From the NCBI RefSeq assembly GCF_009914755.1, contig NC_060934.1: DNA of 64,000 nucleotides. One strand, 5' to 3'. The position numbers and the translations under genes were made by a program. Below the pieces are notes generated by a model. It saw only the letters and a program-made list of their open reading frames with translations, made no database searches and was not told where the DNA came from. The DNA is from the human T2T-CHM13v2.0 reference genome, Homo sapiens. The first letter of the stretch is position 1; each line of letters starts with the position of its first letter. Shown piece after piece: positions 51,423 through 63,672 of the stretch.

Positions 51423-52708
51423 GTAAAGTCTGATTGTTATACCATTTTATATCATTTTGTGTTAATAATGACATTTACTGCATTAAAAACAGACAAACAA
51501 AAAAGGTTGTAGAACTTGTTCTCTGATTGCCAGATTTCTCTAGCTTTGTGATTTATTTCTGGCATTTTTACCCTTTTGGTGTTCTGGATGCCTTTTATTG
51601 ATTTATTCTTTTTTCTTGAAAGGATTTTCTATCCCAGTCTACCTTAAGCTGGTTTATGGTGTGATGGGTTGTTTTTTCTCTCATGAAAACTTATGAAGCC
51701 AGTAAACAAAGTTCCTAGATTTGCCTATTGCTGGGTAATTTTTCAGTGCTCTAATTCGATCTTTCAGATTTGGAATCCAAGATTTTAAGCCAGTTTAGAG
51801 CAATTGCCTTCAAACCTAGCTGAGCAGTAGGACTCCTCAGGGGCTTTTTAAAAATGTGCTTTATTCTCTGGCTTCTACAGTTAAGCCTCCACATCTCTAT
51901 TTCCTGCTGCTAGAGGAAATAGTGCTGACTAGTCCTGGGTAGCTGTCACTGAGTCCTTCAGTTTTTGCCTTGTGTCCAAAGTTGGAAAAGGAATTAGTAA
52001 TGTAATATAAAATTTTTGTAATTTATGTTGACTATCTGCCTTAATGTAGGTTAGAAAAAGTATCATTTGAAATGTTACAGTACTCATGTTTTGAATATAG
52101 TCCTTGTGTTGACTTGTAATTTTAATTGATAAAGATTGTTTTGTGTGAACTGTGGATTGTTGATTACATGAGTTGGATCATAACAGATTTCCTAAGAAAA
52201 TAGTGAACTTTTGTTCTCATTGAGTATTTTTATAGTACTTATATTGTTTTCCAAAACCTTATAAAATCTGTATTTCTCCCCCATCATACTTTCTAAAATG
52301 TTTTACTTTTCAATTTTTTTAAAAAGAAAACATCCATTACAAATAAGTAACTATACCTGTATTCAAAAACAGTGTTACTGAGTGTTATATAAACAGGAGT
52401 CTTGTTGCAAGAGTAGATTTATAATTCCAAAAGATCTGTTCCAATAGAATAAGGTGTTTATTTTAAGAATCTTAATGTGGAAGATTGAATCTGAAAATGA
52501 CAATCTTATTATTAAATAATGGCGATATTATTAATAATATTATTTTATTAAAGTAGACCTCAAATAAGCTCTTTGATTTATCAAAAATTTTATTGGATAA
52601 ATATTGAAATTTTTCTGATTTGCCTTACTACTTCACAACAATTAGCTATTCTTCTGGATAATCTAAAAACTTTGAACATTCTACTAGTATAATAGAAAAC
52701 AAATTTTG

Positions 52709-53561: not shown

Positions 53562-53741
53562 AGTAAAAAGCGACAATATGACCAGGAAATTGAGAATCTA
53601 GAAAAACAGCAGAAACAGACTATCGAACGCCTGGAACAAGAGCACACAAATCGCTTGCGAGATGAAGCCAAACGCATCAAAGGAGAACAAGAGAAAGAGT
53701 TGTCCAAATTTCAGAATATGCTGAAGAACCGAAAGAAGGAG
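53562..53741 (+). CDS. SLK: SLK exon 12: coiled coil SKKRQYDQEIENLEKQQKQTIERLEQEHT...KNRKKE
   Basis: ttttacag|AGT...GAG|gtaagt; 180 nt, phase 0-0. Confidence 0.96.
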
Positions 53742-56200: not shown

Positions 56201-56293
56201 GTTATAAATGAAGTGGAGAAAGCACCCAAAGAGCTGAGAAAAGAGCTCATGAAACGCAGGAAAGAGGAGCTTGCACAAAGCCAGCATGCTCAG
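56201..56293 (+). CDS. SLK: SLK exon 13: known 93-nt alternative cassette exon (long vs short isoform), VINEVEKAPKELRKELMKRRKEELAQSQHAQ
   Basis: ctgtag|GTTATA...GCTCAG|gtaaca; 31 codons, phase 0-0, so it can be skipped in frame. Confidence 0.94.
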
Positions 56294-56943
56294 GTAACAG
56301 CAGCAGCTTAATGCTACTAAAACCAGAAAGCACCATTTTCTCACAGCTTGATAAACCATGGTTGAAAGGGTAAATTTTAAGTGTTATTATTATATGATGT
56401 TGACTTCTCCCCATTCAAAAACTCCTGGAATCTTCTTTATTTAATACTAAATTCCTACTAATGGTGACATTTAAGTTGCTAATATGAAGTTAAGTGGAAT
56501 GTTTGGAAAGTTGACTCCAGATGAAATAAACAAGTATATGAATGTATAATCCACTGTTATCTGATTTTAATCTTGATGGGAGCTTATAGTTTTAAGTAGT
56601 AATGCCAATGTTTGTTAGAAAACTTTTAGGACATAAAAATAGAGGATGGTATATAAGCTTTGTGCTTACAAAAAGTATGCCCATTAAAACGCTATTATTT
56701 CTATAAAGTGCAGTTAGAAGAAAAATAGCAAATGGTAACTTTAAATGGTAGTTCAAACATGTATTGCTTTTAAGCTTGACAACATAAGCAACTTTAAAAC
56801 TGGATTTTAAATATTAAGTACCTTGTTTTTCTTTTTGGTTCACAATCCAGCAGTTAAACAAATAGACTATTTTTACCTATATAGAGTTTAAAGCAACCCA
56901 ATCTAGGTTATGATAAAGTTAAGCCTTGTCATAAGATGGGTGA

Positions 56944-57243
<300 letters not shown>

Positions 57244-57834: not shown

Positions 57835-58090
57835 AATAGCAAACGCAGCATTTACTATATGTCAGGCATTGTTCTAAATGCTTTATGTGTATGAACTTAT
57901 TTAATCTGAGTTAATTATCCTTGAGGTAGTCTTATTACCCCCAGTTTACAGTTGAGGGAACTCAAGCACAGGAAGGCTGAGTGACCCTCCCAAGGTCACA
58001 CACCTGGGTAGTGGTAGAGCCAGGATTCTCATCCAGATAAGTTTGGGTACATGTTTCACACACTGATTCGCTGCACCATGCTGCCTCTCA
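57835..58090 (-). mobile_element. MIR
   Basis: tttacagttgagggaactcaagcacag...cccaaggtcacac core. Confidence 0.75.
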
Positions 58091-58622: not shown

Positions 58623-58851
58623 CAGTGGTTTTCAAACTATACTAACAGGAATTTTGACTTTGAAAGAAGCAACTATGGGAGTCCCTAAGACGGCAAGAAC
58701 TCTGGGCTGTGAGCCCCTGCTTCTGCTTCAACTCAAGCAACACCACTTTTGCTGTGGTTTATAAACTGGGATTTTTGGGGGTGAATTTTAAAAAAGGGGG
58801 TTCTACTAGCTTAAAAAACAACAGCAACACACTAGAGTTTGGAAACCACTG
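58623..58851. mobile_element. hAT-type MITE inserted next to or within a MIR
   Basis: TIRs cagtggttttcaaact / agtttggaaaccactg. Confidence 0.7.
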
Positions 58852-59016
58852 ATCTAGTTCAAATCCTTCATTTTACAGATGAGAAAGAGGTCCATCTGTT
58901 AAGTGACTTGTTCCAGGCCTCAAGAAACTCAACATTTGTATAATTATTCTTTTCGTTTACAAAAAGTCATTCAGATATATTCTCACCTGGGAGGTGCATT
59001 CTATTCTGATCCACAG

Positions 59017-59088
59017 GGTGTTGCTCAGATCATGATTCAGTCTTTTCAGTTGTCATCTTGTGCAGTCTTCAACGCCCAAATGCAGGAC
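59017..59088 (+). CDS. SLK: Candidate additional SLK cassette exon (72 nt, GVAQIMIQSFQLSSCAVFNAQMQD)
   Basis: ctattctgatccacag|GGT...GAC|gtaagt; 24 codons, no stop, phase 0-0 matching exons 12, 13 and 14; lies in non-repeat sequence between two MIRs. Expression is not shown by the sequence. Confidence 0.6.
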
Positions 59089-61418
59089 GTAAGTCCCACG
59101 TGCCTGTGGGAGGATGGCTTCTCCTGTTTTACCTGCCTTTTCACATGTGCCTTTTCATTGTTGGCTTCATTTGCCAAAATCTAGATGATTGATACATGAT
59201 AATGTTTGTAATGACAATAATAGTGATAACCTGACTTTAGACTTCAGTATTCTTCAGAGTTTTCACATTTGGTTCTCATTGCCACCACCCTAATATAGGG
59301 ATGGAGTCATATAACCATTTTACAGATGAAGAAATTGAGGCACAGAAGACTGTGATCTGCCTCAAGTCACATAAGAGATTAACGGTAGAGCTGGAACTAG
59401 AGCACTTTTAACACGGTGTTCTGTCTACCCCGCCACAAATTCTAATTTGGGATTTTCATGTTTCTCAAGAAAATAAAATACCCTCTCAATAGTATAAGCT
59501 TTGCACATGTGAGAAATTGAATGCTGTGATTAGATTTTTATTTTCGTGTGAAGTGACATTTTGATTGCATATATGTTTATGTAGATGTTTTAATTATGGA
59601 TATGGTCAGAAAAGCCATGTTAAAAGTAGTGATTTTCATTCCGTTTAACTCTATTTTCCATTTATTCAAGTAGTCAATAATGAATAGTGAGTTTCTATTC
59701 TCCTTATTGTAGTTTTAAGTTAAGTTGGAAATTCCAAGCTGTATTCTTTCTTGCAGTTTCTATAGGGAAATAACTAGCTCATTTAACACTGTAATTTTTG
59801 TTTGTGACGTCTGATATATACAACAGGAGTAGATAGAATACAGCTTGATTTCAACCCCTCCTTTTTCCTCTCCTGAAATTAGACTTGTTTTTTATTATTG
59901 GCAGCTGTTTGACTTTTTACTGTTTTCTAAGAGAGTAAGTAAAACATTGATTTTTAAAAGGAGAGGGAGAAATTATGAATTACGATCACTTTTCTGATCA
60001 TTACCATTTTTAGCCTTTGTTTTCATTTAAAATGATCAAATTCTATACAAATAGCCCAATATATCATAACCCTTTCTTACAGTTTTCTAGACCCCAAAGT
60101 TATATTTTTAATGTTTATAGTTATCTGATTAATATGATAAAATTGTTTATCCACATTTAAACTTGTACTTTTAAAGGGCACTCATTTTACAATTTATGTG
60201 TTTACTTTAAAAAATGATTTTTGGCCTTAATAATTTGGGTTCTTTTGTTGTTGTCTTTTATTTGTTAATCCAAGTGATTAAGTTCATCTTTTTTTTTTTA
60301 AGGTGTGTTTGTGTAATCTATTTGAAATGTGAGTGCTCTTTTCATACCTGAAAGTAATTTCTAATTATAAATTCCATGTGAATGTTATTGTATTTGGCTT
60401 TTGAAGTTAGGGAATTTAGTGAATGTGTAATAACATTAACATTTTGTTTGTTTTGAGGTAATGAAATATATTGATTAGTGTGTAAGGGACCTTTTCAGAT
60501 AATTTTTAGCTTTAATATAAAAAATCCTTTATACAGTGTCCGACTACATAGTCATCCAGATTCTGCTTAATTTTTCAAGTCTACAGCTCTGTAAGGCAGC
60601 TGGGTTCTTTGCTAACTCTAATTGTTAGGACTTGTATACACTGGACTTATATCTGCCTATCTTCACTTTTACCTGTTGATCCCTATCTTACTTCTGGAGC
60701 CACACAGTGCTAGTTCTGCCTGCTTCAGTATATAAACAGTCATAGCTCCTCTTTACCCTTTAGGAGTTAGCTGCTTTAAGGAACACTTCTCTAGTTCTTT
60801 CAGGCAGTCATTGTGAGGCATGGTTTCTGAACCCTTTATTCCCAGCTTTGAGTTTTCTGTGGTTTACTTTTGAACTTTTAAAAATGTGATACTAAGGGAA
60901 GGGACCCACTACTCTTTATGTGGACTGAGACCAAGACTGTTGATACTTGGGACCAATTGAGTGGAAGCTCCTTGAAGGCAGAACTCTCTTTCATTAATTT
61001 TAGTAACCTTCTAAGTAGTATAGTGTCCACCATTTACTAAGTGCTTAATAAAGGTTTTCTTTGAATTGAACTTACTGTGTTTAATTTAGACATAAATACA
61101 GTAATATGAACAAAAATTGCATAGATGAGAAATTACATTTACTGTTTTAGTGGCACTGGCTTATATTTACCTTTTTTATTTTCCCATAAGTATTTATTCA
61201 CCCCATCCTTTACTTTTGTGTTTGATTTTTTTGTGCCTAAATGTAAGATTTATATTTATGCTAGTTAATTTAGACCCATTGTTTCTGTCTACACAGATTT
61301 TTTTTTTAATCCTGTATGTAAACCAATGATAAAAATGTTGAACAAAAGAAAACCCTTTGATATTTTTGCAGGTTATGTTGTTTATTGAACAAGTTTGTAT
61401 ATAGAAATTTTACAGTTG

Positions 61419-61746
<328 letters not shown>

Positions 61747-62836: not shown

Positions 62837-63204
<368 letters not shown>

Positions 63205-63542: not shown

Positions 63543-63672
63543 GAACAAGAGTTTGTTCAGAAACAACAGCAAGAATTAGATGGCTCTCTGAAAAAGATCA
63601 TCCAGCAGCAGAAGGCAGAGTTAGCTAATATTGAGAGAGAGTGCCTGAATAACAAGCAACAGCTCATGAGAG
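63543..63672 (+). CDS. SLK: SLK exon 14: EQEFVQKQQQELDGSLKKIIQQQKAELANIERECLNNKQQLMR; gene continues beyond the window
   Basis: ttttaatag|GAACAA...AGAG|gtaatt; 130 nt. Confidence 0.96.

What the first reader, a model, noticed from the sequence alone, without database searches (positions are those of the whole stretch)
59017..59088. Candidate hidden second cassette exon in the SLK coiled-coil region (72 nt, in frame)
Seen: in the intron between exons 13 and 14 there is an acceptor (gtgcattctattctgatccacag, with branch-like tctcac/ctgat upstream), exactly 24 stop-free codons (GVAQIMIQSFQLSSCAVFNAQMQD) and a donor with a perfect intronic consensus (GAC|gtaagt). It is phase 0-0, like exon 13, so 12-X-14 and 12-13-X-14 would both stay in frame. 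It sits in an island of unique sequence between two MIRs. An internal acceptor (tcttttcag|, 59049) would give a shorter in-frame 39-nt version. Established: human SLK is normally described as two isoforms, with or without exon 13. Inference: a third, probably tissue-restricted isoform could put an almost uncharged hydrophobic segment at the position where exon 13 puts a highly charged helix, possibly mutually exclusive with it, changing dimerisation or partner/membrane binding. I have an unverified recollection of a very similar peptide in predicted fish SLK isoforms; this needs testing and is not a search result.
Basis: partly seen in the sequence, partly recalled or inferred. Interest (0 to 1): 0.85.

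Follow-up and report, generated by a model that had tools for sequence, protein, structure and literature searches.

The report
Ancient conserved alternative SLK exon
The 72-base stretch is a real alternative coding exon of the SLK kinase gene, kept almost unchanged from fish to humans; databases already hold it, but no SLK paper I found mentions it.

Summary
Window 59017-59088 (+) has an AG acceptor, 24 stop-free codons and a GAC|gtaagt donor, in phase 0-0 between SLK exons 13 and 14.

Sequence signals alone do not separate it from chance. About 20 equally scored acceptor-donor pairs occur per strand in the window.

Conservation settles it. A search with the peptide and short flanks listed 120 proteins, and all 120 carry the 24-residue segment, always at the exon 12/13 to exon 14 junction of SLK. 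They come from teleosts, sturgeons, frogs, a turtle, birds and mammals. Seventeen of the 24 positions are invariant in 115 aligned sequences. Human-teleost identity is 88%, against 49% for exon 13.

One listed protein is a human partial protein, "STE20 like kinase, partial", made of exon 13 + X + exon 14 exactly. The exon is therefore real but already in public annotation.

It is not mutually exclusive with exon 13: 78 models are 12-X-14 and 30 are 12-13-X-14. No model uses the proposed 39-nt version.

None of the SLK papers I searched or read mentions it. Its tissue and function are unknown. AlphaFold2 models place it at the start of the second long helix of the first PKK domain.

The parts
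59017..59088 (+). Exon X: a 72-nt, phase 0-0 alternative coding cassette exon of SLK that encodes GVAQIMIQSFQLSSCAVFNAQMQD.
   Evidence: Searches give the sequence, translation and phase. In some searches all 120 listed SLK proteins carry the orthologous 24 residues. The human partial protein P0123 contains the peptide identically. In one search, 17 of 24 columns are invariant in 115 sequences.
58994..59016 (+). 3' splice site region, gtgcattctattctgatccacag. The pyrimidine tract is interrupted by purines and ends in cag.
   Evidence: The crude PWM score is 5.12, and only 2 of 13 real SLK acceptors in the window score higher. Read in frame, the last two codons give Pro-Gln. The same PQ precedes X in two unspliced read-through ORFs of other species (P0240, P0241) and in the fish 10-residue extension ...SPPQ. 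This fits a conserved ccacag acceptor, which is an inference.
59089..59094 (+). 5' splice site, GAC|gtaagt.
   Evidence: The PWM score is 3.39, and 7 of 14 real SLK donors score higher. Read in frame, gtaagtcc gives Val-Ser-Pro, and VSP follows X in both unspliced ORFs P0240 and P0241.
58980..58986 (+). Possible branch point, ttctcac, with its A 31 nt upstream of the AG.
   Evidence: Seen only. This is an inference from the yUnAy consensus as I recall it and was not tested.
53562..53741 (+). SLK exon 12, constitutive. It ends ...KNRKKE in phase 0 and is the upstream partner in 12-X-14 models.
   Evidence: In one search, 78 of 120 models join exon 12 directly to X.
56201..56293 (+). SLK exon 13, the known 93-nt cassette that encodes 31 charged residues. 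It is the upstream partner in 12-13-X-14 models and in the human partial protein.
   Evidence: BLASTP finds no similarity between exon 13 and X at E <= 100.
63543..63672 (+). SLK exon 14, the downstream partner, starting EQEFVQKQQQ.
   Evidence: X is followed directly by the exon-14 sequence in 119 of 120 listed models. The exception, P0122, repeats X.
58836..58910 (.). Upstream dispersed-repeat fragment.
   Evidence: One search finds 2 further matches on other chromosomes, at 81% and 95% identity. The family was not determined.
59303..59371 (.). Downstream dispersed-repeat fragment.
   Evidence: One search finds 16 further matches on many chromosomes. The family was not determined.

Best explanation
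Window 59017-59088 is a genuine, very old alternative cassette exon of SLK, called X here. It lies in the intron between exon 13 and exon 14, is spliced in phase 0-0, and adds 24 almost uncharged residues inside the first PKK (Polo kinase kinase, PF12474) helical domain of the C-terminal regulatory half.

It is combined freely with the known exon 13. Together with the two textbook forms 12-14 and 12-13-14, this gives four possible proteins.

Shown:
- The sequence features.
- Presence of the same peptide at the same junction in annotated SLK proteins of teleosts, sturgeons, frogs, a turtle, birds and five mammals, including a human partial model.
- Near-invariance of the peptide.

Inferred:
- The exon dates at least to the common ancestor of ray-finned fishes and tetrapods.
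- Purifying selection acts on the encoded peptide.
- In human it is used at low level or in a restricted cell type.

Inferred mechanism, with lower confidence. In AlphaFold2 models the exon 12/14 junction is the break between two very long helices. Exon 13 supplies the break through its Ala-Pro. When exon 13 is absent, the break falls on KKKE-G at the exon 12/X junction. X forms the first turns of the second helix. Including X therefore replaces or extends a highly charged helix start with an uncharged segment that is conserved on all faces. This most likely creates a specific protein-protein or intramolecular (autoinhibitory) contact rather than a mere spacer.
For: Sequence and phase.

Breadth of conservation:
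- In one search a 44-aa query (10 aa of exon 13 + X + 10 aa of exon 14, taken from stored protein P0019) gave 179 proteins at E <= 10 among 375 candidates, of which 120 were listed.
- All 120 contain X.
- The architectures are 78 as 12-X-14, 30 as 12-13-X-14, 5 as 12-(10 aa)-X-14, 2 as 12-13-(10 aa)-X-14 and 5 odd or partial.
- X shows only 10 sequence variants, and three of them cover 113 of the 120 proteins.

Depth of conservation:
- Seventeen of 24 columns are invariant and 5 more are at least 90% conserved in 115 aligned sequences.
- The four best 24-residue windows of 485 in the whole protein alignment all lie over X and its junction with exon 14.
- Identity of human to 23 teleosts is 88% for X, 86% for exon 12, 79% for exon 14 and 49% for exon 13.

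Mammals:
- The frame is intact in human (window and P0123), marmoset P0167, goat P0130, camel P0013 and desman P0019, at 22-23 of 24 identical residues.
- Two unnamed unspliced ORFs align with the human intron. In P0240, X is 23/24 identical while the aligned flanks are 5/9 and 11/22. P0241 does not discriminate: X is 22/24 and the flanks are 30/38 and 5/6.

Human annotation: P0123 equals exon 13 + X + exon 14 exactly.

Structure:
- In the camel 12-13-X-14 model, helix 633-753 is followed by a break at 754-755 and then helix 756-912. X occupies 778-801 and is helical, at pLDDT about 75-81.
- In the sparrow 12-X-14 model, helix 627-736 is followed by a break at 737-741 and then helix 742-875. 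X occupies 741-764, with pLDDT rising from 58 to 88.
- The Pfam PKK match is interrupted at X.
Against: - I saw no reads, cDNAs or junction counts. Every protein is an annotation model, and some come from ab initio pipelines.
- The 120 proteins were retrieved by similarity to X, so the measured conservation is ascertained. A further 59 hits were not listed.
- In the search with exon 12, only 2 of the 109 listed proteins that span the junction had X. None of the 30 rows whose source includes 'lgn' did (my count from the table).
- The passages I read in two SLK splicing papers speak of two isoforms (10.1101/2022.10.28.514146; PMC9132324).
- In the passages I read of PMC2041973, a tissue RT-PCR panel is described with two products.
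- Within mammals X is slightly less conserved than its neighbours: 92% against 100% for exons 12-14 in camel and desman.
- The hub table shows only 1 of 4 human RefSeq transcripts, and that one lacks X.
- The structural models have low overall confidence (mean pLDDT 54-55). I did not inspect how the helices pack.
Confidence: 0.8

Rival explanations
1. The exon works in fishes, amphibians and birds but is nearly silent in human and other mammals. On this reading the human partial model reflects rare or noisy splicing, and the sequence is drifting slowly or is held for another reason.
For: - Within mammals X varies at positions 2, 5 and 8, while exons 12-14 are 100% identical in camel and desman.
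- Only 5 of the 120 listed cluster representatives are named mammals.
- Only 2 of 109 junction-spanning proteins in the exon-12 search had X.
- The SLK papers I read describe two isoforms.
Against: - The frame and both splice-site dinucleotides are intact in every mammalian sequence seen.
- In P0240 X is 23/24 identical while the flanks are about 50%.
- The mammalian substitutions are conservative: V/I, I/V/A and Q/H.
- Clustering at 90% identity can hide mammalian isoforms inside clusters whose representative lacks X.
Confidence: 0.15
2. The conservation reflects a non-coding function of the DNA or RNA, such as an intronic splicing regulator of exon 13 or an enhancer. On this reading, inclusion as an exon is incidental.
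For: - Conservation on all faces of the helix (17 of 24 invariant, including many polar residues) is unusual for a coiled-coil spacer.
- Highly conserved alternative exons often also carry constraints at the RNA level. This is general knowledge as I recall it and was not tested here.
Against: - Dozens of independent annotations splice X at exactly the same boundaries and in frame.
- The amino-acid changes seen are conservative.
- In P0240 conservation drops outside the exon, apart from the splice-site codons.
- No Rfam family matches the region.
Confidence: 0.05
3. X is a chance intronic pseudoexon: good splice-site look-alikes around an accidental open frame.
For: - There are 23 (+) and 20 (-) acceptor-donor pairs in the window with scores at least as good. 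The - strand also yields 2 in-frame stop-free pairs.
- The open frame extends well beyond the exon, to 93 codons.
Against: The same 24 residues sit at the same SLK junction from teleosts to mammals. Chance cannot produce this.
Confidence: 0.01

Closest known systems
SLK exon 13 cassette (SLK-L / SLK-S isoforms)
   Same: Both are phase 0-0 in-frame cassettes inserted after exon 12 in the first PKK/coiled-coil domain, and both are optional. Both lie at or just after the break between the two long helices in the AlphaFold2 models.
   Different: - Exon 13 encodes 31 highly charged residues. X encodes 24 residues whose only charge is the final Asp.
- Human-teleost identity is 49% for exon 13 and 88% for X.
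- The two exons share no sequence similarity.
- Exon 13 is studied in many papers. No paper I found mentions X.
Existing database models that contain X: human partial protein P0123, and NCBI 'isoform X1-X5' and UniRef SLK models of fishes, frogs, birds, marmoset and goat
   Same: They hold the identical exon at identical boundaries. P0123 matches the window's exons 13, X and 14 letter for letter.
   Different: They are annotation records only. The transcript chosen in the hub's RefSeq table lacks X, and I could not see the other 3 of the 4 human RefSeq transcripts or any supporting reads.
STK10 (LOK), the paralogue of SLK
   Same: It has the same domain layout. The human genome holds an exon-13 equivalent (VKNEVEKLPRQQRK..., E 7.6e-7) and an exon-14 equivalent (E 7e-10).
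   Different: No X-like peptide is found in the intron of about 3.4 kb between them. The best match is 16 bits at E >= 0.33.
Intronic pseudoexons (decoy splice-site pairs)
   Same: By splice-site scores and frame alone, X cannot be told from about 20 decoy pairs per strand in the window.
   Different: Decoys are not conserved. X is nearly invariant across bony vertebrates.

Membership tests
Functional alternative coding cassette exon | Canonical AG acceptor and GT donor at both ends. | tested here: met
   One search shows cag|G at the acceptor and GAC|gtaagt at the donor. Both scores fall within the range of the real SLK exons.
Functional alternative coding cassette exon | Length is a multiple of three and the frame set by the flanking exons has no stop. 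| tested here: met
   The exon is 72 nt and the flanking phase is 0-0.
Functional alternative coding cassette exon | Exon sequence, frame and boundaries are conserved across species. | tested here: met
   All 120 listed proteins carry X at the same junction. Seventeen of 24 columns are invariant. Human-teleost identity is 88%. The set was retrieved by similarity to X, so it is ascertained.
Functional alternative coding cassette exon | Transcript evidence: junction reads or cDNA. | tested here: inconclusive
   Annotated models exist, namely human P0123 and many 'isoform X' models. No reads could be inspected. The only two short hits, P0240 and P0241, are unspliced read-through ORFs.
Functional alternative coding cassette exon | Protein evidence: the peptide is detected. 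| not testable with these tools
   X has no Lys or Arg. The tryptic peptide would therefore be 32 residues in 12-X-14 or 41 residues in 13-X-14, derived from the sequences. Peptides this long are hard to detect.
Mutually exclusive exon pair (exon 13 / X) | Exactly one of the two exons is included, never both and never neither. | tested here: not met
   In one search, 32 of 120 models have both. In one search, 78 of 109 junction-spanning proteins have neither.
Mutually exclusive exon pair (exon 13 / X) | The two exons are homologous, from a tandem duplication, and of similar length. | tested here: not met
   No BLASTP alignment is found at E <= 100, and the exons are 31 and 24 residues long.
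Chance pseudoexon | No conservation beyond the neutral intron level. | tested here: not met
Exonised transposable element | The exon lies within a repeat copy. | tested here: not met
   Window 58930-59230 matches only itself in the own genome. The dispersed matches begin outside it. The tool warns that such counts are lower bounds.

The most novel reading that the evidence does not exclude
X-containing SLK is an ancestral, functionally distinct form of the kinase. Its invariant uncharged helix would be a dedicated docking or autoinhibitory surface. In humans it would be made in a restricted cell type that SLK studies have not sampled. All published SLK-L/SLK-S work would then describe only two of four proteins, and variants in X or its splice sites would be unscreened candidates in SLK-linked disease.
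Probability: 0.35. Interest if true: 0.6.

Novelty: already known. Interest (0 to 1): 0.45.

Why it matters
[quoted passage not shown] It has been linked to cancer, EMT, stem-cell state and liver disease (papers listed).

A second optional exon lies at the same junction and is better conserved than exon 13 itself. The switch may therefore have up to four states. Primers, junction counts and isoform constructs that assume two products can then mislabel or miss X-containing transcripts.

The peptide is among the most conserved parts of the protein in the sequences examined, yet it has no described function. That makes it a cheap target for RT-PCR, long-read mining and interaction tests.

For genome scanning, the case shows that splice-site and frame signals alone gave chance-level support. 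A single protein search was what settled the question.

Tried and rejected
- **Splice-site scoring.** I used a PWM built from consensus frequencies I recalled, calibrated on the 14 real SLK exons. It cannot separate X from decoys.
- **Rfam scan of intron 13.** It found only Alu-derived SRP and miRNA-like matches below gathering score and one weak snoRNA match at 57922-57992. Nothing lies at X.
- **Regulatory motif scan within 300 nt of X.** There is no GCATG, ACTAAY or GU-rich motif. YCAY occurs 11 times downstream against 5.3 per 300 nt in the intron. This is too weak to name a regulator.
- **Crude heptad-register scoring of four isoform types.** Scores were below threshold nearly everywhere, so it was uninformative. 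I note only as arithmetic that 31 and 24 both leave a remainder of 3 on division by 7.
- **ESM Atlas search with the 24 residues.** Top scores were 0.89-0.90 with about 100 of 256 shared features, which is chance level.
- **Search for an X-like exon in human STK10.** None was found.
- **Short-protein search (24-77 aa) for spliced fragments.** It returned only two unspliced ORFs.
- **Literature.**
  - The peptide string QSFQLSSC occurs in 0 papers.
  - 'SLK' + 'novel exon' + 'STE20-like' gave 0 papers.
  - 'slk' + 'vastdb' + 'conserved' + 'cassette exon' + 'muscle' gave 0 papers.
  - 'SLK' + 'mutually exclusive exons' + 'coiled-coil' gave 5 papers.
  - 'Slk' + 'neuron-specific' + 'alternative exon' + 'STE20-like kinase' gave 22 papers.
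  - 'SLK' + 'STE20-like kinase' + 'three isoforms' gave 6 papers.
  - Nothing in the listings concerned X. Supplementary tables of splicing atlases were not searched and may list the exon.
- **No complex-prediction job was sent**, because I make no binding claim that a pass would change.

Full report
**Observation.** Window 59017-59088 (+) reads ...tctattctgatccacag|GGTGTTGCTCAG...ATGCAGGAC|gtaagt. It translates to GVAQIMIQSFQLSSCAVFNAQMQD with no stop. Joining the annotated coding exons shows that exon 12 (53562-53741) ends in phase 0, exon 13 (56201-56293) is phase 0-0 and exon 14 (63543-63672) starts in phase 0. Inclusion of the 72 nt therefore keeps the frame with or without exon 13.

Two details need adding. 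The open frame is not confined to the exon: it runs 93 codons from stop to stop, 58903-59181. The stretch 58930-59230 matches only itself in the own genome, while both flanks contain pieces with dispersed matches elsewhere. These are 58836-58910 with 2 matches and 59303-59371 with 16 matches. The repeat family was not determined.

**Is it more than chance on sequence alone? No.** I scored sites with a crude position weight matrix whose frequencies I recalled from the splice-site consensus, and judged it against the window's own 14 SLK exons.
- The candidate acceptor scores 5.12, and 2 of 13 real acceptors are higher.
- The candidate donor scores 3.39, and 7 of 14 real donors are higher.
- At or above both scores the + strand has 23 acceptor-donor pairs 30-300 nt apart, and the - strand has 20.
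- After requiring a multiple of three and no stop, 1 pair remains on + (the candidate) and 2 overlapping pairs remain on -.

A reader scanning 64 kb should expect to find one such object by chance.

**What settles it.** The protein database behind search for homologous proteins holds vertebrate proteins. A search with exon 12 listed 120 SLK proteins.
- 109 of them span the exon 12/14 junction.
- 78 have no insert and 27 have exon 13.
- 2 have odd inserts.
- 2 have exon 13 followed by a 24-residue segment 22/24 identical to the human candidate. These are P0013, named a Camelus ferus SLK isoform, and P0019, from Galemys pyrenaicus.

The bare 24-aa peptide was below the tool's minimum. I therefore searched with a 44-residue stretch of P0019, made of 10 aa of exon 13, X and 10 aa of exon 14. 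This gave 179 proteins at E <= 10 among 375 candidates, with 120 listed.

All 120 carry X. By the names their sources give, they include:
- many teleosts;
- two sturgeons;
- frogs (Rhinophrynus, Pelobates, Engystomops, Bufo);
- a turtle (Eretmochelys);
- birds (Corvus, Passer, Taeniopygia, Phaethornis and others);
- mammals (Callithrix, Capra, camel and desman), plus a human record.

The human record, P0123 ('STE20 like kinase, partial [Homo sapiens]', 98 aa), is exon 13 + X + exon 14 of this window letter for letter.

**Architecture.**
- 78 models are 12-X-14.
- 30 are 12-13-X-14.
- 5 are 12-(10 aa)-X-14 and 2 are 12-13-(10 aa)-X-14. The extra 10 residues are [G/D]ECAVCSPPQ, in some fishes.
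- 5 are odd or partial.

X is followed directly by exon 14 in 119 of 120. X and exon 13 are therefore independent cassettes and not a mutually exclusive pair. They share no sequence similarity. No model shows the shorter 39-nt form.

**Conservation.**
- X has only ten sequence variants in the 120 proteins. Three of them account for 113.
- In an alignment of 115 of the proteins, 17 of 24 X columns are invariant and 5 more are at least 90% conserved. I dropped 5 proteins before aligning: the four odd models P0122, P0177, P0180 and P0191, and the 98-aa human fragment P0123.
- The four most conserved 24-residue windows of 485 in the whole protein all lie over X and its junction with exon 14.
- Against 23 teleost 12-13-X-14 proteins, human identity is 88% for X, 86% for exon 12, 79% for exon 14 and 49% for exon 13.

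Caveat: these proteins were found by similarity to X, and 59 hits were not listed. The figures describe lineages where X is recognisable. They say nothing about lineages that may have lost it.

**Mammals.**
- X is 22-23 of 24 identical to human in marmoset, goat, camel and desman. The changes are conservative (V/I, I/V/A and Q/H).
- A search among short proteins found only two unnamed ORFs. Both read straight through intron-X-intron.
- In one of them, P0240, X is 23/24 identical while the aligned flanks are 5/9 and 11/22. The residues that correspond to the splice sites are kept (PQ before X, VSP after it).
- The other, P0241, is close to human throughout and does not discriminate.
- X is a little less conserved within mammals than exons 12-14, which are 100% identical in camel and desman. 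That would fit weaker use in mammals.

**Where it sits and how it may work.** Pfam places X inside the first PKK domain (PF12474). The match to the profile stops at X in P0013 and resumes around it in P0123.

Two AlphaFold2 models were built with the 115-sequence alignment. Their overall confidence is low because of the long disordered middle of the protein (mean pLDDT 54.8 and 54.1). Confidence in the C-terminal helices is high.
- In the camel 12-13-X-14 protein, a helix spans 633-753, breaks at 754-755 (the Ala-Pro of exon 13), and a second helix spans 756-912. X (778-801) is helical at pLDDT about 75-81, and exon 14 is above 90.
- In the sparrow 12-X-14 protein, the first helix spans 627-736. 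The break is at 737-741 (KKKE-G, the exon 12/X junction). The second helix starts at residue 742, the second residue of X. pLDDT rises from 58 to 88 across X.

In both models the alternative region lies at the turn between two very long helices, and X forms the start of the second. I did not inspect coordinates or PAE, so whether the helices pack as a hairpin is not shown.

My inference is that X swaps or extends a highly charged helix start with an uncharged one that is conserved on every face. This suggests a specific contact surface, either with another protein or intramolecular, rather than a spacer.

X has no Lys or Arg. Its tryptic peptide would be 32 residues (12-X-14) or 41 residues (13-X-14), which would make it easy to miss in proteomics. 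This is derived from the sequences.

**Paralogue.** In the human genome, STK10 has recognisable equivalents of exon 13 and exon 14. Nothing resembling X lies in the intron of about 3.4 kb between them.

**Literature.** I read passages, not whole texts, of four papers.
[quoted passage not shown] - PMC2041973 describes included and skipped products in a tissue RT-PCR panel.
- PMC12139437 uses the two RefSeq forms.

None mentions a further exon. The string QSFQLSSC occurs in 0 papers. Five other searches found nothing about X. Supplementary tables were not searched and may list it.

**Other checks.**
- No Rfam family matches the region.
- No clear regulator motif lies within 300 nt.
- A heptad score was uninformative.
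- The ESM Atlas search was uninformative.

**Verdict.** The feature is real: an ancient alternative coding exon of SLK under strong constraint. The claims of novelty, of mutual exclusivity with exon 13 and of a 39-nt variant are not supported.

The exon is already in public annotation, including a human partial model, so I rate it 'already known'. What remains open, and untouched in the papers searched, is where it is used in humans and what the invariant peptide does.

Noticed in passing
Proteins P0188-P0190, P0192, P0195, P0197 and P0201; human counterpart at window 58990-59016: Seven of the 120 listed models (all fishes by the names) carry 10 extra residues, [G/D]ECAVCSPPQ, directly before X. 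This looks like an upstream alternative acceptor or a 30-nt micro-exon. The human in-frame upstream reading is GGAFYSDPQ and shares only the final PQ of the acceptor.
   Followed up: partly
L010 3458-3541 (-) and L005 1501-1629 (-), which is G000 contig C5 near 172.60 Mb: Human STK10 has clear equivalents of SLK exon 13 (VKNEVEKLPRQQRK..., E 7.6e-7) and exon 14 (E 7e-10). No X-like sequence lies in the intron between them. X is either specific to SLK or lost from STK10.
   Followed up: yes
Protein P0122 (a sturgeon record flagged UNVERIFIED_CONTAM by its source): This model contains exon 13 twice and X twice in tandem. It is probably an assembly or annotation duplication.
   Followed up: no
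Window 56938-57243 (-), 61421-61703 (+) and 62879-63161 (-): Intron 13 holds three Alu-type elements. They give Metazoa_SRP matches of 39-56 bits, below the gathering score of 70. mir-1268, mir-3135 and mir-1285 look-alikes lie inside them, all below gathering score.
   Followed up: no
Window 58903-59181 (+): The frame of X stays open for 93 codons across both splice sites. Unspliced contigs of other species therefore yield predicted 'proteins' (P0240, P0241) that are intron read-through and not isoforms.
   Followed up: yes
Window 59089-59388 (+): YCAY tetramers are about twice as frequent in the 300 nt downstream of X as in intron 13 overall: 11 against 5.3 per 300 nt. This is a weak hint of NOVA-type regulation. 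Its conservation was not tested.
   Followed up: no
Window 51580-51783 on the reverse-complement sequence as numbered: The - strand, used as a null, gave two overlapping in-frame stop-free pairs with scores at least as good as X. This shows how readily such pseudoexons arise.
   Followed up: no
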